A DNA stretch of 64,000 nucleotides from Staphylococcus phage vB_SurM-PSU4. This document shows positions 2,782 through 29,384 of this stretch, one piece after another. Each line of letters begins with the position of its first letter. Position 1 is the stretch's first letter. The notes below the pieces were generated by a model. It did no database searches, had not been told where the DNA came from, and saw nothing but the letters and a program-made list of their open reading frames with translations. The DNA lies in the sequence record OL436245.1; one strand, 5' to 3'. A program made the translations under genes and the position numbers.

Positions 2782-3546
2782 TTAATCATCTAAAAAGAAT
2801 TCGTTATTGTCTTCATAACTTGTGTTAATGAATACAGAATCAAATTCATTTTCATTATTTTTAATGTATAAGTCTTCTAGACGTGATAGACCAATTCTCG
2901 CATATATACTTGCTTGACTATAATGGTCATCACCTTTTCTCTTGATTACTTGATACATTTCTTCTGTCTTGCTATCTTCTTCATCTCTGATGACCACATT
3001 TTGCCAATGTTTAAGAAGTATAGCTTTATCATTATCATTTTCTTGGTAAATTCTTATTCTACCTGTTTTTAAATCTTGGATATAAATTTTGTTCTGCATC
3101 AATTTATCTACAGTAACAATATTTGAATTCTCGTTAAACACAGGTTTAATTTGTCCAGTAGATTTAGGAGATGATTTGTAAGTACAACCAAACACAATAT
3201 CTTCACCGAAGTATTGTTGGAGTCTTAGTAAGTTGTTTCCTGAATCTCCTGTATCTGCTACAATAATATCTGGGTTATACTTAGAAAATTCTACACGTAT
3301 TTTTTCTATATCCGATTCAACCATGTTAGGGTTTTTATTTCGTTTAACATTAAATAACCTAATGAGGTCTATCTTACCATCTTCAGTCATTCCATGAATT
3401 GTACAATAATGAATATTACCCCAATCCACTGATGCTGCGATAAATTTATAATCCCCTCTATTAAACATTTGTTTCTTAGCAATAGGAGATTGGTTGTTGT
3501 AAATATCTTCTTGTAATACTTTCATCTTCTGGTCTTCGTATGGAAA
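2782..3546 (-). CDS. terL: Terminase large subunit, last exon (C-terminal RNaseH-like nuclease domain); exon start approximate
   Basis: The translation carries the typical TerL nuclease motifs (FIAASVDWG, IVADTGDSG). The exon start at ~3546 is inferred by analogy to other intron 3' ends in this window (ggtagtaacg|tttcc). The ORF track lists 2782-3561 from a GTG start. Confidence 0.75.
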   Translation of the reverse strand, partial: FPYEDQKMKVLQEDIYNNQSPIAKKQMFNRGDYKFIAASVDWGNIHYCTIHGMTEDGKIDLIRLFNVKRNKNPNMVESDIEKIRVEFSKYNPDIIVADTGDSGNNLLRLQQYFGEDIVFGCTYKSSPKSTGQIKPVFNENSNIVTVDKLMQNKIYIQDLKTGRIRIYQENDNDKAILLKHWQNVVIRDEEDSKTEEMYQVIKRKGDDHYSQASIYARIGLSRLEDLYIKNNENEFDSVFINTSYEDNNEFFLDD

Positions 3547-4118
3547 CGTTACTACCGTCACTTTCGTGATATTTATATACGGACTAGACTATATCATATT
3601 CCTTATTTTTGACTAAGGAATCTCTACTTTACAGGTCGTTAACCTTCTCTTATAGTTCTACCTTACCTCATTTAGTAAGTTACCTATAAACTTAGTCGTT
3701 AGGCATTTATCTACTTTGTAGAATTTAGCAATTGATTGCCCTCATCTTTACATGTTAGGGGTTTCCAATTTTAGTAGAGTTATTCGATATACATTACTGT
3801 ATAAAGGGGCTATCCCGCTAACCCAGCGTGTAGTTGTAGAACAATTGAGTTGATTCAGTATTCATTTCTTTTTCTTTTAATTCACTAGCTGAAATCCAAC
3901 ATTTTTTTGTTACGATTGAGTTCGTTATTCTCAACCTTCTATATATCGCTATATAAGTTCAGACTATATCTTTACCTTATCAAATGAGACTTAGGTATCC
4001 TCTGTTTCGTGCTACTTAGCACTACTAATTAGTCGTTGCACGTTCTCTTATTACAAGAGCTTCGCTCATGATTATCTCTAATGAGAGACTTCCCATGAAT
4101 TAAAAGGACTTCACTCTA
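3547..4118 (-). mobile_element. ORF-less group I intron region in terL containing two P7-like cores; probably two introns flanking a cryptic ~100-nt micro-exon (~3821-3922)
   Basis: Two copies of the caacgacta...gatatagtct (P7 5'/3') motif pair are present. Between them, an open frame of 35 codons (NSIVTKKCWISASELKEKEMNTESTQLFYNYTLG) begins exactly at the predicted intron end. The same arrangement is seen in the tail-tube gene. Confidence 0.5.
3821..3922 (-). CDS. terL: Candidate terL micro-exon (cryptic, <60 aa, not in ORF track)
   Basis: The frame is open only in the exon-compatible phase. It is bounded by a ...gagaataacg intron-3'-like end and a gcccctttatacag intron-5'-like sequence. Inference only. 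Confidence 0.35.
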
Positions 4119-4499
4119 TACATTTCTATATAGAGGGGCTTGGTTAACCGCATTTAGCTGTGAAATAAAATAACCTCTTGTTCCTTTTCCACCTTTAGTT
4201 CTTTCAGGATACTTACAGTGCCATTCTCCGTTATACCATCTATCTAGAAGTTTACCACATTTTTGACAAACAAATTGGTAACTTCCTTCTTGCACTGTTT
4301 TAGCCATTTCGTCAACACCTTCAGGATTGACTAATAGGATATTTCCACTCTTCTCTAAGTTATCTGGGTCATAGTCTTCATAACTCATTTCATTTAAGTA
4401 ATCACAATGTGTACATCTATGACCATAATACCATTGGTCAGATTGCATATAGAGTTTATGAATTCCCATATTTGGAGTCGTCTTCAACATTACTATTTT
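4119..4499 (-). CDS. terL: Terminase large subunit exon (approximate boundaries)
   Basis: ORF 4116-4502 translates to ...YFISQLNAV..., lying between intron-like sequences. The putative upstream intron ends in ...gagatagtccattttattatg. Confidence 0.6.
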
Positions 4500-5691
4500 C
4501 ATAATAAAATGGACTATCTCATAATCCTTAGTTTTGGTTAAGGATTCTCTGCTTTACGATTTTATAAATAACTAAAAATAACTTCTTTTATTTCTTCATC
4601 TGTATAAGTATAGGGTATTCTTAATAAATCTATATTATTTTTTTCAGCATAATTATTTTTAATATTATCTCTTCTTTGTTGGTCTTTCAATTTTTTAGCC
4701 CCACCAAAAAATTCTACAGGTTTACTATGCTGAATTCCATCATATTCTATAAGAAGGTTTTTACTAGGAATATAAAAATCAAAAGGTAAGTATTTACCTC
4801 TAACTTTTAAATCTTCATATACTTTTTGTATTTCGTAAGTAACTTTATTATCTTTTAGAACTCTCTCTACTTTTCTCTCACCCTTAGATTGTTTACAAAA
4901 AGGACATCTATTACCATTTAAAAAATCTTTAGGTGTAACATAGTAATCAGAACCACAACCTTTATGATGAACAACAACATTTGACCTATTATTAATATAC
5001 TCAGATTTTAAAATAAATTCACCCTCACCTTTTTGTAATACCTCTTTTTTAAATTCCTCAGTAGTTTTTCTTCTATTACCAAAACAATAGGGGCATCTAT
5101 TACCTCTTAAGAAATCTTTAGGTGTCATATCAAAAATATTATCACATTTGAAATGTTTTATTTTTATCTTAGTAGTGCTTCTTCTATACTTTGTTAGTTG
5201 TTGATACTCTTCTTTTGCTATTTCTTTGAATTCTTTTTCAAAAATATAAGGATTTTTTCTTGTTGTGTTACATGAACATCTTCTATTATCATAGAAAAAA
5301 TGATTGGGTGTTGTTGTGAATATCTCACCACAATCAGTATGGAAAAAATCCATATTTACGTTACCTTTTATATATTCTGATTTAACCTTGTATTCTTCCC
5401 CTACTTTATTATACAATCTTTCTTTTATATCTTCTGTAGTTACTTTTTTAGTCATTTAAATCATCCTCTTATTAATATTTTATTCAATTATAACAAATAA
5501 ATATTAATAAGTCAATGATTATTTAAAATCTTTTATCTGATTCTACCTTACTCCTTTTAGTAAGTTACTCAGAAATTTAGTCTCTAGGCATTTACAAGTA
5601 TATAACTTGATTTAGCAATTGATTGTCTACAGCATTATCTGTTTAGAGTTTCCAATTTTAACAGAGTTTTTCAAAACAAATTACTTTGTTA
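4500..5691 (-). mobile_element. Group I intron in terL carrying a homing-endonuclease ORF
   Basis: The intron begins TAACAAAG right after exon ...CGTGGGGCT, giving an in-frame UAA. It has aattggaaac/gcaatcaattgctaaat family motifs and a 3' gagatagtcc core, and the 297-aa ORF sits inside. Confidence 0.65.
4562..5455 (-). CDS. Intron-encoded homing endonuclease, triple CxxC zinc-ribbon N-terminus plus Vsr/DUF559-like PD-(D/E)XK C-terminus
   Basis: The repeat C-x3-F-x3-P-x2-F-L-x-G-N-R-C-P-x-C occurs three times. The C-terminus reads LIEYDGIQH...FFGG...QQRRDNIKNNY...LLRIPYT and is shared with the ORFs at 6065-7048 and 27740-28675. Confidence 0.65.
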   Translation of the reverse strand: MTKKVTTEDIKERLYNKVGEEYKVKSEYIKGNVNMDFFHTDCGEIFTTTPNHFFYDNRRCSCNTTRKNPYIFEKEFKEIAKEEYQQLTKYRRSTTKIKIKHFKCDNIFDMTPKDFLRGNRCPYCFGNRRKTTEEFKKEVLQKGEGEFILKSEYINNRSNVVVHHKGCGSDYYVTPKDFLNGNRCPFCKQSKGERKVERVLKDNKVTYEIQKVYEDLKVRGKYLPFDFYIPSKNLLIEYDGIQHSKPVEFFGGAKKLKDQQRRDNIKNNYAEKNNIDLLRIPYTYTDEEIKEVIFSYL

Positions 5692-5997
5692 AGCCCCACG
5701 ATTTAACATAGGGGTACTCCAACGTCTTATAACCTTGAAAGGTGAACTTGACATTGATTCCATTGCTGATGATTCTGATGATGAAGGTACTCTATCATAT
5801 TCATCCAGTGACAAATAATCAATATCCACACCTTCTAAAGCTTTAGGTGTAGAACTTGTTCTAAAGAACATACTTGAATTTCTTATTTGTTTATATTTTA
5901 ATGAGTCATTATCTTGGTTAATGATGCTTGCAAAATAAGGTTGTTGCAATGTAGGGTTTATCCTACTTTGTACGAATTTCTGCATTTGGTCACTGGT
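5692..5997 (-). CDS. terL: Terminase large subunit exon (contains IDYLSLDEYD Walker-B-like motif); boundaries approximate
   Basis: ORF 5689-6000. A hhhhDE Walker B-like motif is followed by a Ser/Thr-rich segment. The exon is followed directly by an intron starting TAACAAAG. Confidence 0.6.
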
Positions 5998-7318
5998 CAT
6001 TTTTACCCCTAGTTTCCTAGTATTTAAAGGGATTAGACTATATCATAAGAATACATTTATATATTTAAATACGGACTGTATTCTTCTCTGCTTTACTTCC
6101 TAATAAGTATTTATCTTTTAAGTCTTCTAAGTAATTTATAAGTTTTATTCCTGCTATTGTGTAAGGTATTCTAATCATCTCAATGTTATTATCTTTAGCG
6201 TACTTATTTTTTATATCATCTCTTATTTGTTGCTTTTTGAAGGCTTCTAAACCTCCAAAATATTCTATAGGTTCATAATGTTGTTTCCCATCATATTCAA
6301 TAAAAAGCCCATTCTCACCATAATCAGGTATATAAAAATCAAACTTTAAAATGTTAATATATCTACAATCCTCAAATGATTTTTGAAACTCATATATTAT
6401 ACCTTCATCTTTTAAAAATCCCGCTATTATATCTTCGCCATTAGAAATACTACTACATTGAGGGCATCCTGTTAACCTTAAAACATGATTAGGTTCAGCT
6501 TTAAAAACACATTTACACTCATTACATTGGAAAGATGTTTTAGTATGAGTATTTACATAATCACCTATCAAACTTATTTTACCTTTGTGAAAATACTCTA
6601 ATTGTTCTTGAACAACATCTATCTTCTTACGTTGAGATTCTTTAACATTTTCTATGATACATTGAGGACATACATTCTTCCTTCTTTTACTTATCATATT
6701 TATAGGTGTATTATAAAAATAAAAATCATGTACATTACATTTTAATTTTATACTTTCCGAATATCCTGTATATTCACCAATAACAGAAATATTATTATTG
6801 TACTTTTTATTTATCTCATCTTTAAACGTATCTGTTGTTTTAATTCTTTTTTGATTATCACAATAATAACATCTACTATTTCCTGTTAGGAAATTATTTG
6901 GTTTTACAGACCATTCATTACCACAAATGTTATGTTTCATAAGTATTTTATCTCTAGTTCTTGTATACTTACCAATAACTGTGTATTCATTACCTACTAA
7001 ATCATATATTTCTCGTTCAAATTCTTCTTGTGTTTTCTTTTTAGACATTCTTATCCCCCTTTCTTATCTTTTTATACTTATTAGGTTTTCTTATACTATT
7101 TTCGTTATCTCCATTCAGATAACTATTAGTAAGTTTAGTCGTTAGACATTTATCCTAACATTACTATATCATATATAAATATAGTTGTCAAGAATTTAGT
7201 ACGGTAGGTTCCCACTATCTGTGTATAGTCAGAGTTAGGGTTTCTTACCAGTATATTGTTTATCTATACATTATTTTACTATGCCCGTTTAACAGAGTTT
7301 TAGTTCCCCACTCTGTTA
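5998..7318 (-). mobile_element. Group I intron in terL carrying a homing-endonuclease ORF
   Basis: The intron starts TAACAGAG directly after the exon codon ...ATGAAA. Its 3' end reads gatatagtctaatccctttaaatactaggaaactaggggtaaaaatg, and the 327-aa ORF sits inside. Confidence 0.65.
6065..7048 (-). CDS. Intron-encoded homing endonuclease (CxxC zinc-ribbon repeats plus Vsr/DUF559-like nuclease motif), paralog of 4562-5455
   Basis: Several CxxC/CPxC zinc-ribbon modules are followed by the C-terminus FIEYDGKQHYEPIEYFGG...QQIRDDIKNKY...MIRIPYT. Confidence 0.65.
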   Translation of the reverse strand: MSKKKTQEEFEREIYDLVGNEYTVIGKYTRTRDKILMKHNICGNEWSVKPNNFLTGNSRCYYCDNQKRIKTTDTFKDEINKKYNNNISVIGEYTGYSESIKLKCNVHDFYFYNTPINMISKRRKNVCPQCIIENVKESQRKKIDVVQEQLEYFHKGKISLIGDYVNTHTKTSFQCNECKCVFKAEPNHVLRLTGCPQCSSISNGEDIIAGFLKDEGIIYEFQKSFEDCRYINILKFDFYIPDYGENGLFIEYDGKQHYEPIEYFGGLEAFKKQQIRDDIKNKYAKDNNIEMIRIPYTIAGIKLINYLEDLKDKYLLGSKAEKNTVRI

Positions 7319-7473
7319 TTTCATAGGGAACGTGAACATACACTTGACAGAATCTTTACTATGTGTATCTGCAAAATGCAACATCTTATTGTATCCAACT
7401 TCACTTAATCCAAGTTGTCTCGATTTAAGTACTGCTATGTTAGGGTGTTTATCATTTATTATGGCAATCTGCC
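7319..7473 (-). CDS. terL: Candidate cryptic terL exon (~51 aa) with Walker-A-like SRQLGLS motif; not in ORF track
   Basis: The minus-strand translation is GQIAIINDKHPNIAVLKSRQLGLSEVGYNKMLHFADTHSKDSVKCMFTFPMK. It is flanked upstream by an intron 3'-end motif (...ctaggggtataaaacg) and downstream by TAACAGAG. SRQLG resembles the T4 gp17-type Walker A region. Confidence 0.45.
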
Positions 7474-7734
7474 CGTTTTATACCCCTAGTTTCCTAGTAT
7501 TTAAAGGGTTTGGACTATCTCATAGTTACTAATTTAGGTAAGTAACCCTCTTCTGTTACTTCTCTTAAAAAGAGCTTTCTTATACTGTTCTACACTCAAC
7601 CATTTATGAGCTTACCAGTAATTTTAGTCTCTAGGCATTTATGACTTATTAAGCCAATTTAGCAATTGATTGTCCTCGTCTTTACGTTAGGAGTTTCCAA
7701 TTTTAAGAAGAGTTTAAAGACCACAGCAAATTTA
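7474..7734 (-). mobile_element. ORF-less group I intron in terL (between exon 1 and the cryptic exon)
   Basis: It contains the same family motifs as the other terL introns (aattggaaactcctaacgtaaagacgaggacaatcaattgctaaatt ... gagatagtccaaaccctttaaatactaggaaactaggggtataaaacg). Confidence 0.5.
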
Positions 7735-7935
7735 TGGTCTATGAGCTTGAGCTTTACTTTTATCTCTATTTGGTATAGAAAAAGTAATATTATGCCCACG
7801 AATTAAATTGTGTTTCAACATATAAGCAGTAGTACTAGACATTGTTAATACATAATCTAATTGTTCTTGGGTAACATTTGTAGTTCCATATGTGGATATG
7901 AGTAAGTCTTTTAATTGTTTTCCATCCATTTTCAT
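7735..7935 (-). CDS. terL: Terminase large subunit, first exon (N-terminus); 3' boundary approximate
   Basis: The ATG at 7935 directly follows the stop of the upstream gene. The ORF closes at 7732 with TAA, and TAAATTTGC resembles the UAAC-type intron starts seen elsewhere in the gene. Confidence 0.5.
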
Positions 7936-7937
7936 AA

Positions 7938-8408
7938 TTAAAATGTCTCCGCATTTTGTTTATTCATAAGCTTCTCTTTTTCTGTAACCATTTCTGCTAC
8001 CTCATCGGCAGTCATTTCAGATAACTTATCTAAGTCCACATATTCATTTCCGTCTTCATCTACTTCACCTGTAGTTTCAACGAAGTTACTTAGTACAGCA
8101 CGTTCTTTTTCTCCTAATGCAGGTAGCGTACCCATACCACCTGAAGAGTTACCATTCATTTCACTAATTTGTCCGTACATGACTAATAATTTATAGATGT
8201 CGTTTGTGTCGTTTACATTGATTTCTCCACGCTCGACTTTATCTTCTAGTTTAATCATAAGTTTTTGTATGACACTTAAAAAACCATTGGATATAGCTTC
8301 ATTAGCATCTTCATTCTCTCGCTTTTTTTGCTTGAGTTGGTTTCTCATCGTATCTACTCTTGACTTCAAAAGTAAATCACTCCTCTTTCTTGTATTTATA
8401 ACAATCAC
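7938..8408 (-). CDS. Hypothetical acidic protein immediately upstream of terL (candidate terminase small subunit, unproven)
   Basis: 156-aa ORF with a basic N-terminus and acidic C-terminus. Only its position relative to terL suggests a packaging role. Confidence 0.4.
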   Translation of the reverse strand: MIVINTRKRSDLLLKSRVDTMRNQLKQKKRENEDANEAISNGFLSVIQKLMIKLEDKVERGEINVNDTNDIYKLLVMYGQISEMNGNSSGGMGTLPALGEKERAVLSNFVETTGEVDEDGNEYVDLDKLSEMTADEVAEMVTEKEKLMNKQNAETF

Positions 8409-8700
8409 TTAGTTTGTGACATATATCTAGTTGTAATACTTCACTGAAAACTAAGTGTAGGTGGTCATGCGAAGCAAAGGCTTTACCTGTTAGTTTATCA
8501 TATGTTGATAAGCTTCTCCCACAAATAGAGCATACCCTCGAAGAACTTGATATTCTTTTATCTCCTCTTTTTATATGTGTAACTTTAGATGCTCTTCTCT
8601 TTAACTTGTTCCTCGTCAGTTTTATCTTTTCTTTCAAGGTTTCTTCCACTCTCCTCACGAACTTTAGCTCGCATTCGAATCTCCTCTTTTGATATACCAT
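8377..8700 (-). CDS. Possible small Zn-binding protein (CSICGR...HDHLH); overlaps next ORF, doubtful
   Basis: 107-aa ORF overlapping 8585-8974 in another frame, with no clear RBS. Confidence 0.25.
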   Translation of the reverse strand: MVYQKRRFECELKFVRRVEETLKEKIKLTRNKLKRRASKVTHIKRGDKRISSSSRVCSICGRSLSTYDKLTGKAFASHDHLHLVFSEVLQLDICHKLSDCYKYKKEE

Positions 8701-24807: not shown

Positions 24808-26577
24808 ATGGCTGAAAGTGTATTTCCAAGAATCCCTATCACCCGTCCACATACAGAAATAAATGTAGATACGTCAGGTATTGGTGGTTCAGCAAGTTCA
24901 AGTGAGAAGATTCTTTGCTTAATTGGACAAGCTGAAGGTGGGGAACCTAACACAGTATATGAATTACGAAATTATTCACAAGCTGAACAAATTTTCCGTT
25001 CAGGAGAATTAGTAGATGCTATTCACTTAGCATGGACTACAAACCCACAATTTACAGCAGGAACTATTTTAGCAATGCGTATTGAAGATGCAGAACCTGC
25101 AACACTAACTAAAGGTGGATTAACTTTTAAATCTAAAATCTATGGTGTAGACTCTAATGACATTCAAGTTGCTTTAGAAGAAAACACTATCACAGATTCT
25201 TACCGTTTGAAAGTTATCTTTGATAAAGACCGTATTCGTAACACTTACGATAATATTGGTAACATCTTCAAATTAGAGTATACAGGTGAAGGTCAAGGTA
25301 CTTATACAGTTAAACATAATAAAGAAACTGGTGAAGCTACAAACCTAATCTTAAGTGAAGATGGTTCAGAAGTAAGAAATTATGCACTAGGTGAAGGTGT
25401 ATATGAATATACGAATGACATCATTAAAGACGTAAACAACTTACCAAGCTTTAAAGCTACATTGTCACCATTCGGAAATAAAGACTTAGAAACTAAGTAT
25501 TTAGATGAAGCTAAAGATGTAGATATTAAAGTTGAAGATGGGGTTTATGTAACAGCAATCTTCGGAGATATTTTAAAACAAACTAAATATGACCAAGCAA
25601 TATCAATTGAACGTACAGAAGAACAACAAGATTCTCCAAGCGATGTAAGTGTAGAAGCAGGTGAAAGTAGTGCTGAAGTATCAGCAGGAAGTACTGTATC
25701 TGTACAAGACATTGAACCATTTGAATTATCTAACTTACAAGGCGGAACAAATGGAACACCTCCAAGCACTTGGTCAGAAAAATTAGATAAATTTTCACAT
25801 GAAGGTGGATACTACATTGTACCACTAAGTTCTAGACAATCTGTACACGCAGAGGTTGCACACTTTGTAACTTCACGTTCAGATGCAGGAGAACCAATGA
25901 GAGCTATTGTAGGTGCAGGAATTAATGAAGCAAAAGAACAATTAATTGGTCGTGCTTCAGCTCTAGTAAATCCTCGTGTTACACTTGTAGCTAACTCTGG
26001 TACATTTATGATGGATGATGGACGTAGAAACCATGTACCTGCATATATGGTAGCAGCAGCTATCGGTGGTTTAGCAAGTGGACTAGGTATTGGTGAATCA
26101 ATTACATTCAAGAACTTCCGTATTAATTCACTAGACCAAGTTTATGAATCAGCAGACTTAGACCAATTAAACGAAAACGGTGTAGTAACTATCGAATTCG
26201 TTCGTGACAGATTAAACACTCGTTTCCGTATTGTTGATGATGTAACAACATACAATGACACAAGAGACCCTGTTAAATCTGAAATGGCAATTGGTGAAGA
26301 AAACGACTTCTTAAGTTCTGAACTTAAAATCTTACTTGATGATAACTTCATCGGTTCTAGAACAACAGAAACAAGCCCTTCAATCATCAAAGACTTTATT
26401 CAGTCTTATCTTGAACGTAAAAAACGTGACCATGAAATCCAAGATTTCACACCAGAAGACGTACAAGTTATTGTTGAAGGTAAAGAAGCACGAATCTCAA
26501 TGACAGTATTCCCAATCAGAACATTGAAAAAAATTACTGTATCATTGGTTTACAAAGAACAACAATTACAAGCCTAA
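24808..26577 (+). CDS. Tail sheath protein
   Basis: 589 aa. The N-terminus MAESVFPRIPITRPHTEINVDTSGIGGSASSSEKILCLIGQAEGGEPNTVYELRNYSQAEQIFRSGEL and the C-terminus ...ISMTVFPIRTLKKITVSLVYKEQQLQA closely match what I recall of the Twort-like/phage K sheath. Confidence 0.85.
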   Translation: MAESVFPRIPITRPHTEINVDTSGIGGSASSSEKILCLIGQAEGGEPNTVYELRNYSQAEQIFRSGELVDAIHLAWTTNPQFTAGTILAMRIEDAEPATLTKGGLTFKSKIYGVDSNDIQVALEENTITDSYRLKVIFDKDRIRNTYDNIGNIFKLEYTGEGQGTYTVKHNKETGEATNLILSEDGSEVRNYALGEGVYEYTNDIIKDVNNLPSFKATLSPFGNKDLETKYLDEAKDVDIKVEDGVYVTAIFGDILKQTKYDQAISIERTEEQQDSPSDVSVEAGESSAEVSAGSTVSVQDIEPFELSNLQGGTNGTPPSTWSEKLDKFSHEGGYYIVPLSSRQSVHAEVAHFVTSRSDAGEPMRAIVGAGINEAKEQLIGRASALVNPRVTLVANSGTFMMDDGRRNHVPAYMVAAAIGGLASGLGIGESITFKNFRINSLDQVYESADLDQLNENGVVTIEFVRDRLNTRFRIVDDVTTYNDTRDPVKSEMAIGEENDFLSSELKILLDDNFIGSRTTETSPSIIKDFIQSYLERKKRDHEIQDFTPEDVQVIVEGKEARISMTVFPIRTLKKITVSLVYKEQQLQA

Positions 26578-26646
26578 TCTAGTGGAGTACCTAGATTAGG
26601 TACTCCTATTATGAAAAAGTTAAACAAAATAGGAGAGTGAATATAG

Positions 26647-26974
26647 ATGGCAAGTGAAGCTAAACAAAGTATTCACACTGGTAATACCGTCTATCTAATG
26701 GTTAAGGGTAAAATTGTAGGCAGAGCTCAATCAGCTTCAGGTACACGTGAATACGGTACTGAGGGCGTATATGAAATTGGTTCTATCATGCCACAAGAAC
26801 ACGTTTACCTTAGATACGAAGGTACAGTGACAATAGAAAGATTACGAATGAAAAAAGAAAACTTTGCAAAATTAGGATATGCTTCTTTAGGTGAAGAAAT
26901 CCTTAAAAAAGATGTTATCGATATTTTAGTTGTAGATAACTTAACTAAGAGTGTAATCATAGCGTATCATGGTT
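26647..26974 (+). CDS. Tail tube protein, exon 1
   Basis: MASEAKQSIHTGNTVYLMVKGKIVGRAQSASG... matches what I recall of the Twort-like tail tube. The unspliced ORF stops at 26985 after only 112 aa, and the exon is predicted to end at ...CATGGTT. Confidence 0.7.
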
Positions 26975-27275
26975 TAACTAAATAGACCCCTTGTACAGTG
27001 ATGTGCATTGAATAATACTTTAAATTGCTAGAACACCGTAAAGCTAACTTAACCACATAGGAATTGGAAACGATAAACTAGAAGGTCAGGAAACTAGAAA
27101 AAATAAGTTAGATGGTATATGGTTAAAACCTAAGTACTAATTAATCGGAAATTAGCATCGAAGCTCCTGTAAAATGGAGAACGTTCAACGACTATAATAA
27201 GTGAGTCTTAGTTACAATAAGATTATGGAATAGTCTAGTCCGTATATAAATATTGCGAAAGCAACGGTAGAATCG
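26975..27275 (+). mobile_element. ORF-less group I intron 1 in tail-tube gene
   Basis: It begins TAACTAAATAGACCCC like the terL introns. It contains gagaacgttcaacgactataa (P7 5') and ggaatagtctagtccgtatataaat (P7 3'), and ends ...ggtagaatcG. Exon 1 + exon 2 then read YHG-C-SANNY in frame. Confidence 0.65.
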
Positions 27276-27352
27276 GTTCAGCGAATAACTATGATGAAGA
27301 GATAAACACGAACGAAATGATAACTGAGAGCATAGAGTTTTCTTATCTTACA
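27276..27352 (+). CDS. Tail tube protein, micro-exon 2 (encodes CSANNYDEEINTNEMITESIEFSYLT)
   Basis: The frame is open only in the phase created by splicing from 26974. The peptide matches my recollection of the phage K tail tube C-terminal region. The exact 3' end is ambiguous within ~3 nt. Confidence 0.6.
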
Positions 27353-27616
27353 GCATTAAATTTCTAGTGCCCTTATACAGTAATGTATATTGAATAAATC
27401 CTCTAATTCAGGGAAACCCTAAACGAAATTAAGACGTAGGCAATCCTGAGCTAAGCCTGTAACATACAGGAAAGTGCAACGACTATCTCTACGGAGAGTA
27501 CGCTCAAGTGAGTGGAAATGGGGATTATCCTATAAAGTATAGGATAGTGATATAGTCTGGACATATATGGAAACATATAGAAGGTTAGGAGTAACGAACC
27601 TAATCGTAACACAATC
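27353..27616 (+). mobile_element. ORF-less group I intron 2 in tail-tube gene (or non-spliced 3' intron relic)
   Basis: gcccttatacagtaatgtatattgaataa...ggaaaccctaa...ggcaatc...gtgcaacgactat...gatatagtctgg is closely similar to the 3' half of terL intron 3. If spliced, the C-terminus becomes ...YLTADKAS*. If not, the protein ends ...YLTALNF* at 27367. Confidence 0.5.
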
Positions 27617-27634
27617 GCAGATAAAGCATCATAA
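27617..27634 (+). CDS. Tail tube protein, putative terminal mini-exon 3 (ADKAS-stop)
   Basis: gca gat aaa gca tca taa lies immediately upstream of a strong terminator. It matches the recalled K-like C-terminus ...SDKARQ. Inference. Confidence 0.4.
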   Translation, partial: ADKAS

Positions 27635-27648
27635 TAATTTAGTATACT

Positions 27649-27688
27649 TAAACCCAACTTTTATTGTTGGGTTTATTTTTTTTTAATT
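27649..27688 (+). terminator. Rho-independent terminator after tail-tube gene
   Basis: aaacccaac-ttttatt-gttgggttt hairpin followed by T11. Confidence 0.7.
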
Positions 27689-27689
27689 T

Positions 27690-27725
27690 GCTTTATCAGA
27701 AGCAGTATGTTATAATATAAATATA
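27690..27725 (+). promoter_or_regulatory. Promoter of the free-standing homing endonuclease gene (TTGCTT ... TGTTATAAT)
   Basis: A -35-like TTGCTT and an extended -10 TGtTATAAT are followed by an AAGGAGA RBS and the ATG at 27740. Confidence 0.5.
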
Positions 27726-27739
27726 AGGAGATGATATAA

Positions 27740-28675
27740 ATGAAACAAACAAACCAATTTACATTTAATAAAAAAGAAAGTCAGAAGATATGGGAAGAAT
27801 GGTGTATCAATCAGGGGTTAAAACCTTTAGTTACATATGAGAAATCTCAACAACCTTTTTATTTTGAATTTACTTCAGGTAAATTTAAAGGATTAGTAGG
27901 TAAAACATATTGGGCTAGTATAAAAAGAGGTTCAATAATGAGATTGAGTTGCTTAACAGAAGAGAGTAAAAATAAATATATTAAAGAATTAGGTAAAAGT
28001 AAAGGAATAGAAATTATAGAAGACTATAAAGGAGGTAGAAAAATAAAGCATAAGTTTATTTCAATAGATGGAAAATACAAAGGGTGTGAGGGACAAGTAA
28101 CCTTAAATGACTTAGAGAATATGAAATCTATAGATAATAGAAGTTTAACAATTAAAGGTAAAAAACAATATTTTGATTATAAAGCGAAACAAAGAGATTG
28201 TACAATACTAGAATATCCAGAAAATTATAATATAAAAACCAATGAAAAACTAATAGTAGAAGATAACAAAGGATTAAAACATGAGATAATAGTCCAAGAC
28301 TTTTTTGAGAAAAACTCTATATTAGAAGTTTCAAATTTTAGTGAAGGAGAAAAAATAGTTAAAGAAATACTTATAGAAAGAGGTATTGATTTTATCAAAG
28401 AGAAAGGATTTAAAAATAGTAAAGGTATAACACAGAGGTTTGACTTTTATATAGAATTAGGAGAAGAATTATTTGTAATAGAGTATAATGGTTCACAACA
28501 TTATAAAAAAGCAACGGGATACTTTAAAGATACATTAGAAAAAACTCAAAAAAGAGATGAGTTGAAAAGAGAATATTGTAAAAGAAATAATATATATCTT
28601 TTGGAAATACCTTATACTATTAAAGATAAAGAAAGTATAGACAAAGAGATAAAAGAATTTTTAGACCTAGATTAA
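27740..28675 (+). CDS. Free-standing homing endonuclease (zinc-ribbon repeats plus Vsr/DUF559-like nuclease motif), paralog of the two terL intron ORFs
   Basis: 311-aa protein with the C-terminus FVIEYNGSQHYKKATGYF...QKRDELKREYC...YLLEIPYT, very similar to the C-termini of 4562-5455 and 6065-7048. It has its own promoter and terminator. Confidence 0.65.
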   Translation: MKQTNQFTFNKKESQKIWEEWCINQGLKPLVTYEKSQQPFYFEFTSGKFKGLVGKTYWASIKRGSIMRLSCLTEESKNKYIKELGKSKGIEIIEDYKGGRKIKHKFISIDGKYKGCEGQVTLNDLENMKSIDNRSLTIKGKKQYFDYKAKQRDCTILEYPENYNIKTNEKLIVEDNKGLKHEIIVQDFFEKNSILEVSNFSEGEKIVKEILIERGIDFIKEKGFKNSKGITQRFDFYIELGEELFVIEYNGSQHYKKATGYFKDTLEKTQKRDELKREYCKRNNIYLLEIPYTIKDKESIDKEIKEFLDLD

Positions 28676-28696
28676 TTTCTAGGTCTTTTTTTTTAT
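28663..28696 (+). terminator. Rho-independent terminator after endonuclease gene
   Basis: agacctag-attaatttct-aggtct hairpin spanning the stop, followed by T9. Confidence 0.65.
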
Positions 28697-28826
28697 TCCT
28701 ATTTTGTTATATATATAAAATATGATATAATTAATATAAATAAGATAGAATAATATTATTGCGTGCTATATTAGATATGTAAAAGGAAAAAATTAATTAC
28801 TAAGAAGAGGAGAAAGTGTTTATATT

Positions 28827-29384
28827 ATGGCTGAAGAAAATAAAAAAGATTTATCTGAAATGACCGAAGAAGAGATAGATGAATTAAAATATAAAAAAGA
28901 TACTAAAGAAACAGAAGATAAAACAGAAGATAAAAAAGAAGAATCTAAAGAAGAGGATTCTAAAGAAAAAGAAGAAAAACAAAAACCTGTTTCTGAAATG
29001 ACTAAAGAAGAAATAGAAGAACTAAAATACAAACAAGAACAAGAAAAACAAAAAGTATTGGATAAAGTTATTAGGGGATATAATGATACGTTCATTAAAC
29101 ATTATGACTTTAGAGAATTAGGTTTAACATTCACAATTAAATTACACTTACCTAATATGATTGAACAAGGTCAAATTAATGCTCTACGCTCTAAATATCT
29201 TGGAGGTACGGATGTAGACCAACCTGCATATATTTATTATGCTTTTGAAATGTTAGCTACAATTCAAGTTGTAGGTGATGACGTTCCTAAGTATTTCAAG
29301 AATGAAGAAGACGTGTATAACCCTGCTCCATTAATTCAAATGTATAATGATTGGATGGAATTTCAATCAACCTTTCGTTACTAG
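28827..29384 (+). CDS. Tail assembly chaperone (upstream ORF of a frameshift pair)
   Basis: 185-aa acidic protein between the tail tube and tape measure genes. It overlaps the next ORF by 38 nt. Confidence 0.55.
   Translation: MAEENKKDLSEMTEEEIDELKYKKDTKETEDKTEDKKEESKEEDSKEKEEKQKPVSEMTKEEIEELKYKQEQEKQKVLDKVIRGYNDTFIKHYDFRELGLTFTIKLHLPNMIEQGQINALRSKYLGGTDVDQPAYIYYAFEMLATIQVVGDDVPKYFKNEEDVYNPAPLIQMYNDWMEFQSTFRY

What the first reader, a model, noticed from the sequence alone, without database searches (positions are those of the whole stretch)
4562..7048. Homing-endonuclease family with triple CxxC zinc-ribbon repeats fused to a Vsr/DUF559-like PD-(D/E)XK nuclease motif, in three paralogous copies
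The ORFs at 4562-5455, 6065-7048 and 27740-28675 share a C-terminal block (I/V)EYDG.QH(Y)...(E)(F/Y)FGG......Q..RD..K..Y...NNI.LL(R/E)IPYT. This resembles the (V/I)ExDGxxH core of Vsr/DUF559-type PD-(D/E)XK nucleases, not HNH, GIY-YIG or LAGLIDADG. The N-termini contain two to three repeats of a C-x3-(F/Y)-x3-P-x2-F-L-x-G-N-R-C-P-x-C zinc-ribbon-like module that could act as modular DNA-binding units. The only Vsr-fold homing endonuclease I know of is I-Bth0305I, and this architecture may be distinct from it.
Basis: partly seen in the sequence, partly recalled or inferred. Interest (0 to 1): 0.7.

Follow-up and report, generated by a model that had tools for sequence, protein, structure and literature searches.

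The report
Vsr-fold, zinc-finger homing endonucleases in phage

Summary
The observation mostly holds. All three ORFs exist and are the only three carriers of a shared C-terminal ~110-aa domain in the window.

ORF1 (4562-5455) and ORF2 (6065-7048) each carry exactly three ~62-aa zinc modules with ligands (H/C)-x2-C...C-x1-2-C. ORF3 (27740-28675) has three repeats of similar length but no metal ligands.

The N-terminal modules match Pfam CapR/DUF4379/DUF723. CapR is an experimentally shown zinc-dependent DNA binder.

ORF1 and ORF2 sit in group I introns of a terL gene split by five introns. Close relatives carry intron-free or ORF-free alleles at the same sites. ORF3 is free-standing, just downstream of a tail-tube gene that holds two ORF-less introns.

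The architecture is not new. Merk & Eddy (NAR 2025) described "CapR-like domains + EDxHD/Vsr-like nuclease" homing endonucleases, and a 2025 Bastillevirinae study reported the same PHROG in terL introns. No member has been tested biochemically as far as I found.

Verdict: a correct, ordinary-to-moderately interesting new member of a known kind.

The parts
4562..5455 (-). HEG1: 297-aa homing-endonuclease ORF. Three zinc modules lie at nt 5267-5449, 5075-5260 and 4886-5071; the Vsr-like nuclease domain is at nt 4565-4885.
   Evidence: ORF. Repeat HMM. Nuclease HMM E 2e-43. AF2 pLDDT 91. PHROG 559 E 2e-86. 100% identical to a hypothetical protein of Staphylococcus phage vB_SurM-PSU4.
4560..5526 (-). 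HEG1 cassette of 967 nt (promoter-like site, RBS and ORF). JDF86 and phiSA_BS1 have only 4 nt (AATT / AACT) here, inside an otherwise 94-97% identical intron.
   Evidence: blastn block boundaries. Junction sequences.
5487..5515 (-). Sigma-70-like promoter TTGACT-17-TATAAT with a TG extension, 32 nt upstream of the HEG1 start codon.
   Evidence: One of the two 11-of-12 matches, the best in the region. This is a consensus match only.
4482..5709 (-). terL intron C (group I, 1228 nt), which hosts HEG1. It is inserted at RRWSTP|TTPNMGIH.
   Evidence: The 3' part hits Rfam RF00028 at 22.6 bits. An intron-free allele exists in Golestan101-M. Bacillus phage BCP8-2 has an intron at the same site with a 59% identical HEG.
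6065..7048 (-). HEG2: 327-aa homing-endonuclease ORF. Three zinc modules lie at nt 6854-7042, 6659-6844 and 6452-6631; the nuclease domain is at about nt 6068-6451.
   Evidence: Pfam DUF4379 scores 33.5 bits, above its 24.5-bit cut-off. PHROG 559 E 3e-78.
7163..7191 (-). Sigma-70-like promoter TTGACA-17-TATAGT with a TG extension, upstream of HEG2.
   Evidence: 11 of 12 matches. This is a consensus match only.
5998..7324 (-). terL intron B (1327 nt), which hosts HEG2. It is inserted at MFTFP|TSDQM.
   Evidence: JDF86 and phiSA_BS1 lack it and have contiguous exons. The spliced exons translate into continuous TerL. The 5' exon ends in T and the intron ends in G. No Rfam hit was found across the ORF-interrupted core.
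27740..28675 (+). HEG3: 311-aa free-standing ORF. Three ligand-less ~60-aa repeats lie at about nt 27761-28327; the Vsr-like nuclease domain is at nt 28328-28672.
   Evidence: PHROG 7140 'intron encoded nuclease' E 1e-37. One homologue is named 'VSR endonuclease' in phage ZCSS1.
27649..27675 (+). Terminator-like hairpin between the tail-tube stop codon and HEG3.
   Evidence: 2 such sites found against 0.2 expected.
28663..28686 (+). Terminator-like hairpin overlapping the HEG3 stop codon.
26975..27275 (+). Tail-tube intron 1 (group I, ORF-less), inserted at YHG|CSA.
   Evidence: Rfam RF00028 at 33.2 bits, E 1e-6. The junction restores the Cys codon T|GT seen in the uninterrupted genes of PMS3 and SAM2.
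27357..27617 (+). Tail-tube intron 2 (group I, ORF-less), inserted at FSYLTA|SDKAS.
   Evidence: Rfam RF00028 at 95.5 bits. The junction was inferred from the uninterrupted SAM2 gene.
2782..7935 (-). terL, six exons: 7935-7734, 7473-7325, 5997-5710, 4481-4147, 3899-3821 and 3546-2782. It is the host gene of HEG1 and HEG2. The ORF-less introns are A (7733-7474), D (4146-3900) and E (3820-3547).
   Evidence: tblastn. Rfam hits at 35.4, 90.8 and 48.8 bits. Exact junctions.

Best explanation
HEG1 and HEG2 are intron-encoded, and HEG3 is free-standing. All three belong to the large clade of homing endonucleases that join N-terminal CapR-like treble-clef zinc modules to a C-terminal EDxHD/Vsr-like PD-(D/E)XK nuclease.

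Proposed mechanism:
1. The protein is made from its own promoter inside the intron. This is inferred from consensus matches only.
2. The three tandem ~62-aa zinc modules lay the protein along the DNA of an intron-free terL allele and supply most of the binding. This is inferred from CapR.
3. The C-terminal domain cuts close to the intron insertion site. By analogy with Vsr and I-Bth0305I, it would use a Mg2+ held by D226 and D263, with H243 as general base and E193/E237 as accessory acids.
4. During co-infection the break is repaired from the intron-bearing genome. That copies the intron and the HEG, plus a tract of flanking exon.

What is shown here: fold, motif conservation, repeat architecture, intron location, and presence/absence polymorphism in close relatives. 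What is inferred: zinc binding, DNA binding, cleavage, the target sites, and whether the enzyme nicks or makes a double-strand break.
For: Fold and motif:
- The AF2 model of the domain has pLDDT 94.3.
- Foldseek on the full model puts Vsr, PvuRts1I and AbaSI on top.
- hhalign places E193/D226/E237/D239/D263/K266 on I-Bth0305I E170/D196/E206/N208/D222/K225, with H243 one residue from H213. PMC3239194 names E170, D196, H213 and D222 as active-site residues.
- E54, G57, H60, D80 and K83 of the domain are invariant in 40 diverse homologues and are present in all three window ORFs.

DNA-binding modules:
- Each of HEG1 and HEG2 has three repeats with invariant Cys/His.
- They hit Pfam DUF4379, CapR and DUF723.
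- CapR needs its four Cys for DNA binding (PMC8096241).

Mobility:
- The HEG1 cassette is cleanly absent from the same intron in JDF86 and phiSA_BS1.
- Intron C is absent in Golestan101-M.
- Introns A and B are absent in JDF86.
- Exon 2, which lies between introns A and B, is 85.9% identical to JDF86, against 96.0% and 93.9% for its neighbours. Synonymous changes cluster at the insertion sites.
- Bacillus phage BCP8-2 has the same terL site occupied by an intron with a 59% identical HEG.
- Baoshanvirus terL genes hold at least five members that are 33-40% identical to one another.

Family size and literature:
- The nuclease profile finds 46,381 representatives at 50% clustering with E<=1e-3. 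Of the top 150, 134 carry 1-10 zinc modules, most often three.
- There are 304 BFVD hits, including giant viruses.
- Two papers read the family the same way: PMC12350094 and PMC11878797.
Against: - No member of this clade has been shown to cleave DNA in anything I found.
- Sequence-only links to solved structures fail: phmmer and a profile search of PDB sequences gave nothing.
- hhalign to I-Bth0305I is weak (E 0.08), so the link rests on a predicted structure.
- Pfam DUF559 and DUF2726 hits for the window proteins are below the curated cut-offs.
- The histidine is offset by one residue relative to Vsr and I-Bth0305I (D-G-x-x-H against N/H-G-x-x-x-H).
- HEG3 has Asn at the D239 position and no zinc ligands.
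- The promoters are consensus matches only.
Confidence: 0.8

Rival explanations
1. They are HNH endonucleases, as PHROG 559 and several GenBank/RefSeq records call their relatives.
For: PHROG 559 is labelled 'HNH endonuclease'. phiSA_BS1 gp188, Lactococcus phage AM4 and Lactobacillus phage Lpa804 homologues carry that name. The many CxxC pairs look superficially like zinc-binding HNH proteins.
Confidence: 0.02
2. They are domesticated DNA-binding proteins, either repressors like PLE CapR or splicing helpers, and they no longer cut DNA.
For: CapR itself is a domesticated homing-endonuclease DNA-binding domain. HEG3 has lost its zinc ligands and has Asn at one acidic position. JDF86 and phiSA_BS1 do well with an ORF-less intron C.
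Against: CapR lacks a nuclease domain. Here the nuclease domain is full length, with all five EDxHD-equivalent residues kept in all three ORFs and across the HEG3 subfamily. The presence/absence pattern and the exon divergence at the insertion sites are what active homing leaves behind.
Confidence: 0.08
3. They are Vsr/DUF559-type repair, restriction or anti-competitor nucleases that merely happen to lie in introns. They would act against host or rival-phage DNA in general rather than homing to their own insertion sites.
For: Some BFVD relatives are named 'restriction enzyme'. The nuclease clade is very large and also occurs on contigs of 1.9-5.2 Mb, which are bacterial-chromosome size. HEG3 is not in an intron.
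Against: Two of the three sit in loops of self-splicing introns of an essential gene, and each is associated with a different insertion site. The same site is used in Bacillus and Staphylococcus phages together with an orthologous HEG. Vsr's mismatch-intercalating elements and its own Pfam family are not detected.
Confidence: 0.07
4. For HEG3 only: it is a free-standing homing endonuclease that cuts the intron-free tail-tube gene and so mobilises the two neighbouring ORF-less introns in trans. This would be collaborative homing, as described for cyanophage S-PM2 F-CphI and psbA. This comparison is from my own knowledge; PMC6083498 was listed but not read.
For: HEG3 is a separate transcription unit 105 nt downstream of a tail-tube gene carrying two ORF-less group I introns. 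HEG3 homologues co-occur with these introns in JS1, and similar coverage in SAP1 and V1SA09 suggests the same there, though I did not map those two. PMS3 and SAM2 have neither the introns nor the HEG. B2-102 has the introns with a different HEG at the same position.
Against: Linkage alone does not show targeting. HEG3 might instead home to the intergenic site it occupies. It has no detectable zinc modules, so its DNA-binding mode is unknown.
Confidence: 0.35

Closest known systems
CapR-like + EDxHD/Vsr-like homing endonucleases of phage introns (Merk & Eddy, NAR 2025, PMC12350094)
   Same: The architecture is identical: three to five ~60-aa domains related to Pfam CapR/DUF4379/DUF723, followed by a ~100-aa nuclease distantly related to EDxHD/Vsr. 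That group is also intron-encoded in phages and has thousands of unannotated relatives. HEG1 and HEG2 fit this description point by point.
   Different: The published examples lie in group II and group I introns of a virion RNA polymerase gene. Here the hosts are group I introns of terL in a Staphylococcus Twortvirinae phage. HEG3 is a ligand-less, free-standing variant not described there. Neither study includes biochemistry.
PHROG 559 'VSR' nucleases in terL introns of Bastillevirinae (NAR 2025, PMC11878797)
   Same: They share the PHROG (E 2e-86 and 3e-78), the host gene and the virus family (Herelleviridae). The BCP8-2 member is 59% identical to HEG1 and sits at the same RRWSTP|T site.
   Different: The subfamily and host genus differ. 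The paper notes only a 'less typical' VSR signature and does not describe the zinc modules.
I-Bth0305I, prototype of the EDxHD homing endonucleases (PDB 3R3P; PMC3239194)
   Different: I-Bth0305I binds DNA through two NUMOD2/helix-turn-helix repeats and has no zinc. The window proteins use three treble-clef-like zinc modules. The relationship is not detectable by HMM against PDB sequences. The histidine spacing is D-G-x-x-H, as in DUF559, rather than N-G-x-x-x-H. Dimerisation was not tested.
E. coli Vsr and DUF559/DUF2726 proteins (for example NGO0050, PDB 3HRL)
   Different: Vsr is a stand-alone T:G mismatch nickase with its own zinc site and intercalating Trp residues, and it has no N-terminal repeat array (PMC3239194). 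The window proteins score below the Pfam cut-offs.
CapR and the T5orf172 (GIY-YIG-like) homing endonucleases of ICP1 (PMC8096241, PMC10448857)
   Same: They use the same type of repeated CxxC...CxC/CxxC zinc DNA-binding module, present in variable copy number and shuffled between nucleases.
   Different: The nuclease there is T5orf172, or absent in CapR itself, not a Vsr-like domain.

Membership tests
EDxHD homing endonucleases (I-Bth0305I family) | Vsr-like PD-(D/E)XK catalytic fold | tested here: met
EDxHD homing endonucleases (I-Bth0305I family) | Composite motif E...D...x...H...D (I-Bth0305I E170, D196, H213, D222) | tested here: met
   E193, D226, E237, H243 and D263 are conserved in all three ORFs and invariant or nearly so in 40 homologues. 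hhalign maps them onto I-Bth0305I, with the His offset by one residue; the alignment itself is weak, E 0.08.
EDxHD homing endonucleases (I-Bth0305I family) | N-terminal NUMOD2 / helix-turn-helix DNA-binding repeats | tested here: not met
   The N-termini are CapR/DUF4379/DUF723-type zinc modules, or ligand-less repeats in HEG3. No NUMOD hit was found in Pfam.
EDxHD homing endonucleases (I-Bth0305I family) | Significant sequence similarity to family members | tested here: not met
   phmmer and profile hmmsearch against all PDB sequences, which include 3R3P, gave no hit at E<=10. This is why the clade is best called an outgroup, as in PMC12350094.
EDxHD homing endonucleases (I-Bth0305I family) | Site-specific cleavage next to the intron insertion site; dimeric enzyme | not testable with these tools
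   This needs purified protein and the intron-free alleles identified.
CapR-like + Vsr-like phage homing endonucleases (PMC12350094; PHROG 559) | Several ~60-aa CapR/DUF4379/DUF723-like domains at the N-terminus | tested here: met
   HEG1 and HEG2 have three modules each. Pfam DUF4379 scores 33.5 bits for HEG2 (above cut-off) and 23.8 bits for HEG1 (just below the 24.5-bit cut-off), and CapR gives E 0.002-0.005. This is not met for HEG3, where the evidence is inconclusive (E 0.03-0.17).
CapR-like + Vsr-like phage homing endonucleases (PMC12350094; PHROG 559) | C-terminal ~100-aa EDxHD/Vsr-like domain | tested here: met
   PHROG 559 gives E 2e-86, 3e-78 and 9e-33 for the three ORFs.
CapR-like + Vsr-like phage homing endonucleases (PMC12350094; PHROG 559) | Encoded in a self-splicing intron or otherwise showing mobile-element behaviour | tested here: met
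   HEG1 and HEG2 lie in terL group I introns, and relatives carry empty alleles. HEG3 is free-standing and is absent from PMS3 and SAM2.
HNH endonucleases (database label of PHROG 559) | beta-beta-alpha-Me fold with an H-N-H motif | tested here: not met
   There is no Pfam HNH hit, and the fold is alpha/beta Vsr-like.
Pfam DUF559 / DUF2726 (Vsr-like clan) | Score at or above the curated gathering threshold | tested here: inconclusive
   The window proteins score 13.2-18.6 bits against cut-offs of 20.6 and 24.7. Of 40 family members, 29 hit DUF2726 at E<=0.1, with a best E of 6.7e-9.
Zinc-binding treble-clef finger | Four ligands from a beta-hairpin knuckle and a helix N-terminus, with bound Zn | not testable with these tools
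   Ligand conservation and the predicted secondary structure fit this.

The most novel reading that the evidence does not exclude
The window may catch two stages of how mobile introns are assembled, for a homing-endonuclease clade that has never been tested biochemically.

(a) HEG3 would be a zinc-less, free-standing derivative that cuts the intron-free tail-tube gene and mobilises two adjacent ORF-less introns in trans.

(b) The 967-nt HEG1 unit (promoter, RBS and ORF) would be a self-contained cassette that entered a pre-existing ORF-less terL intron. JDF86 and phiSA_BS1 would preserve the empty state, which differs by only 4 nt at the junction.
Probability: 0.25. Interest if true: 0.55.

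Novelty: new member of a known kind. Interest (0 to 1): 0.3.

Why it matters
EDxHD/Vsr-type homing endonucleases have one characterised member, I-Bth0305I. The clade seen here is far larger and is usually mislabelled HNH or left as 'hypothetical'. Its nuclease profile finds about 46,000 cluster representatives, in phages of Firmicutes and in giant viruses. It uses a countable array of ~62-aa zinc modules for DNA recognition.

This locus offers a convenient test system. It has three divergent enzymes in one genome. Natural intron-free target alleles exist in sequenced sister phages, with exact insertion sites in hand. There is also an ORF-less version of the same intron.

Showing cleavage, and working out how each zinc module reads DNA, would put a sixth homing-endonuclease fold family on firmer ground. 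It might also give a modular DNA-targeting scaffold. For genome annotation, the practical point is that PHROG 559-type 'HNH endonuclease' labels are wrong. A second point is that terL in these phages has six exons, so it should not be annotated as several separate 'terminase' fragments.

Tried and rejected
- Rfam at gathering thresholds on the whole window found no RNA. The whole window in E-value mode also found nothing. The introns appear only when short stretches are scanned, so the empty results are filter losses, not absence.
- Rfam on 5400-7800 and on 26500-29200 missed introns that shorter scans later found.
- phmmer of HEG1 against PDB sequences gave only noise. The 40-sequence domain profile against PDB sequences gave nothing, so the link to I-Bth0305I needed a structure prediction.
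- NCBIfam has no model for any of the three proteins.
- The zinc-module HMM against HEG3 found no match. hhalign of the HEG3-family N-terminus against the module profile gave E 0.14 overall and 0.03-0.17 per repeat.
- I first took the tail-tube 3' exon to lie downstream of HEG3, which would have made HEG3 intronic. I rejected this because no such exon lies in 28676-28826, and the last two exons are upstream at 27276-27356 and 27618-27634.
- The HNH reading was considered and rejected.
- I looked for papers on a characterised member of this clade and found only computational descriptions.


Full report
**What the window is.** The region belongs to a Staphylococcus phage of the Twortvirinae. HEG1 is 100% identical to a hypothetical protein of vB_SurM-PSU4. 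The nearest DNA in the phage collection is from Baoshanvirus genomes: phiSA_BS1, JDF86 and Golestan101-M, at 93-95% identity but covering only a third to half of the query.

**Observation.** The three ORFs are present as stated.
- They share a C-terminal block with invariant FDFYI, IEY.G.QH, Q.RD..K..Y, NNI and IPYT.
- An HMM of this domain, built from 40 diverse homologues, hits exactly these three ORFs among all six-frame ORFs of the window. The E-values are 2e-43, 2e-39 and 9e-30, and the next hit is at E 0.17.
- The N-terminal repeats are real in two of the three ORFs.
  - A 63-position repeat HMM finds three tandem ~62-aa units in HEG1 and three in HEG2.
  - It finds none in HEG3.
- Each unit has a ligand pattern of H/C-x2-C...C-x1-2-C. 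Those positions are invariant or nearly so in a 43-sequence alignment.
- HEG3's N-terminus is also three ~60-aa repeats (hhalign E 0.003 and 0.0009 between neighbours).
  - It has no Cys/His ligands.
  - It matches the zinc-module profile only weakly, though in register (E 0.03-0.17).

**What the domains are.** Pfam assigns the N-terminal units to DUF4379 ('probable treble clef zinc finger') and to the CapR homology domain. DUF723 appears in the homologues, and for HEG2 only at a non-significant E of 0.65.

The C-terminus gets sub-threshold DUF2726, DUF559 and DUF5889 hits. Across 40 homologues, DUF2726 is hit by 29. PvuRts1I-N, MTES_1575 and RAP also appear, and from my own knowledge these are Vsr-like PD-(D/E)XK families. 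No HNH family is hit.

Sequence searches of PDB fail, both with one sequence and with the profile. I therefore predicted structures.
- The full-length HEG1 model has pLDDT 91. It shows three copies of helix, three strands and short helix, followed by an alpha/beta domain.
- The isolated domain model has pLDDT 94.
- Foldseek with the whole model agrees.

I fetched I-Bth0305I from phage 0305phi8-36. hhalign with the domain profile gives a weak alignment (E 0.08). It places HEG1 E193, D226, E237, D239, D263 and K266 on I-Bth0305I E170, D196, E206, N208, D222 and K225, and H243 lies one residue from H213. The I-Bth0305I paper names E170, D196, H213 and D222 as the Vsr-equivalent active-site residues. 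All are present in the three window proteins. HEG3 has Asn at the D239 position, as I-Bth0305I does at N208.

**Genomic anatomy.** terL lies on the minus strand and is split into six exons by five group I introns. I fixed the junctions in three ways: by tblastn with relatives' TerL, by comparison with intron-free alleles, and by a splice search that had to restore the conserved protein. In every case the 5' exon ends in T and the intron ends in G.

| Element | Coordinates | Note |
|---|---|---|
| Exon 1 | 7935-7734 | |
| Intron A | 7733-7474 | ORF-less |
| Exon 2 | 7473-7325 | |
| Intron B | 7324-5998 | holds HEG2 |
| Exon 3 | 5997-5710 | |
| Intron C | 5709-4482 | holds HEG1 |
| Exon 4 | 4481-4147 | |
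| Intron D | 4146-3900 | ORF-less |
| Exon 5 | 3899-3821 | |
| Intron E | 3820-3547 | ORF-less |
| Exon 6 | 3546-2782 | |

Rfam's group I model matches introns D (90.8 bits), E (48.8), A (35.4) and the 3' part of C (22.6) when short stretches are scanned.

The two best promoter-like sites on that strand (11 of 12 matches, with a TG extension) lie just upstream of the HEG1 and HEG2 start codons.

HEG3 is different. The tail-tube gene has its own exon-intron structure:

| Element | Coordinates |
|---|---|
| Exon 1 | 26647-26974 |
| Intron 1 (ORF-less, group I) | 26975-27275 |
| Exon 2 | 27276-27356 |
| Intron 2 (ORF-less, group I) | 27357-27617 |
| Exon 3 | 27618-27634 |

A terminator-like hairpin follows at 27649-27675. 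HEG3 then starts at 27740 and ends in a second hairpin at 28663-28686. HEG3 is therefore free-standing, not intron-encoded.

**Evidence of mobility.**
- In JDF86 and phiSA_BS1, intron C is present at 94-97% identity. The 967 nt at 4560-5526 (promoter, RBS and HEG1) are replaced there by 4 nt.
- Golestan101-M lacks intron C altogether and reads RRWSTP|TTPNMGIH without interruption.
- JDF86 lacks introns A and B.
- Exon 2, which lies between introns A and B, is 85.9% identical to JDF86, against 96.0% and 93.9% for exons 1 and 3. Synonymous changes, including TCN/AGY serine switches, cluster within a few bases of sites B and C. This is what co-conversion and target-site divergence would leave.
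- Bacillus phage BCP8-2 has an intron at the same RRWSTP|T site, with a 59% identical HEG and a recognisably similar intron 3' segment.
- Baoshanvirus terL genes together hold at least five members of the family that are only 33-40% identical to each other. This fits one lineage per insertion site rather than duplication within a genome.
- The HEG3 subfamily is small and confined to staphylococcal Twortvirinae.
  - It co-occurs with the tail-tube introns in JS1. Similar coverage in SAP1 and V1SA09 suggests the same there, but I did not map those two.
  - Both the introns and the HEG are missing from PMS3 and SAM2.

**Mechanism proposed.** The tandem zinc modules bind a long stretch of the intron-free allele. 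This is inferred from CapR, whose DNA binding is lost when its four Cys are mutated (PMC8096241).

The Vsr-like domain then cuts near the insertion site by Mg2+-dependent catalysis with a histidine base. This is inferred from Vsr and I-Bth0305I (PMC3239194). Recombinational repair during co-infection copies the element. Whether the enzyme nicks like Vsr or dimerises to make a double-strand break like I-Bth0305I cannot be decided here.

**Comparison with what is known.** The architecture is already in the literature.
[quoted passage not shown] - A 2025 survey of Bastillevirinae introns lists PHROG 559 proteins with a VSR signature, all in terL introns.
- One HEG3 homologue is already named 'VSR endonuclease' in GenBank.

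My own searches confirm the scale.
- The domain profile finds 46,381 representatives at 50% clustering with E<=1e-3.
- Of the best 150, 134 carry 1-10 zinc modules, most often three.
- 488 phage records hold a homologue, usually labelled hypothetical or HNH.
- BFVD has 304 hits, including giant viruses.

Against the strict EDxHD family definition, the fold and motif tests are met. The NUMOD2 DNA-binding region and significant sequence similarity are not. These proteins therefore work like I-Bth0305I but belong to a sister or outgroup clade.

**Verdict.** Three points need correcting: the third copy has no zinc ligands, the third copy is not intronic, and the modules look like treble-clef fingers rather than zinc ribbons. 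The finding is not new as a kind, but it is a new and unusually well-furnished example. No biochemical characterisation of the clade turned up in the searches. The remaining interest is experimental, together with the possible collaborative-homing role of HEG3.

Noticed in passing
window 2782-7935 (-): terL is cut into six exons by five group I introns (A 7733-7474, B 7324-5998, C 5709-4482, D 4146-3900, E 3820-3547). Relatives add at least one more occupied site: JDF86 has a HEG-bearing intron at LSLD|EYDR. Public records annotate the pieces as separate 'terminase' genes.
   Followed up: yes
window 26647-27634 (+): The tail-tube gene carries two ORF-less group I introns (26975-27275 and 27357-27617), and its final exon is only 17 nt. 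In phage JS1 the homologues of these two introns lie in the opposite order (L004 1428-1701 and 1755-2048).
   Followed up: partly
whole window: Rfam cmscan on the full 64 kb reports no group I intron in either gathering or E-value mode. Two of the introns nevertheless score 90.8 and 95.5 bits, against a gathering score of 50, when a stretch of a few kb or less is scanned. The speed filters lose these AT-rich introns, so more introns may lie unseen elsewhere in the window.
   Followed up: partly
window 7325-7473 (-): terL exon 2, flanked by introns A and B, is 85.9% identical to JDF86, while exons 1 and 3 are 96.0% and 93.9% identical. Synonymous changes, including TCN/AGY serine switches, pile up within about 10 nt of insertion sites B and C. 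This looks like a co-conversion or target-immunity signature.
   Followed up: partly
L007 14861-15373 (Bacillus phage 0305phi8-36 gp194): The phage that encodes I-Bth0305I also encodes a 170-aa 'homing nuclease' that hits this window's nuclease-domain HMM at E 7.6e-13. It has an N-terminal CxxC...CxxC segment, so both Vsr-like clades coexist in one genome.
   Followed up: no
P0139 (Staphylococcus phage Twort, 437 aa); L005 3078-4040: The Twort homologue of HEG3 carries a C-terminal extension of about 130 aa. The extension resembles the unrelated endonuclease-like ORF that occupies the position downstream of the tail-tube gene in phage B2-102. This suggests module shuffling between homing-endonuclease types at this hotspot.
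   Followed up: no
window 8377-8700 (-): A 107-aa ORF upstream of the terminase genes contains CSICG and HDHLH motifs. It may be a small zinc-binding protein.
   Followed up: no
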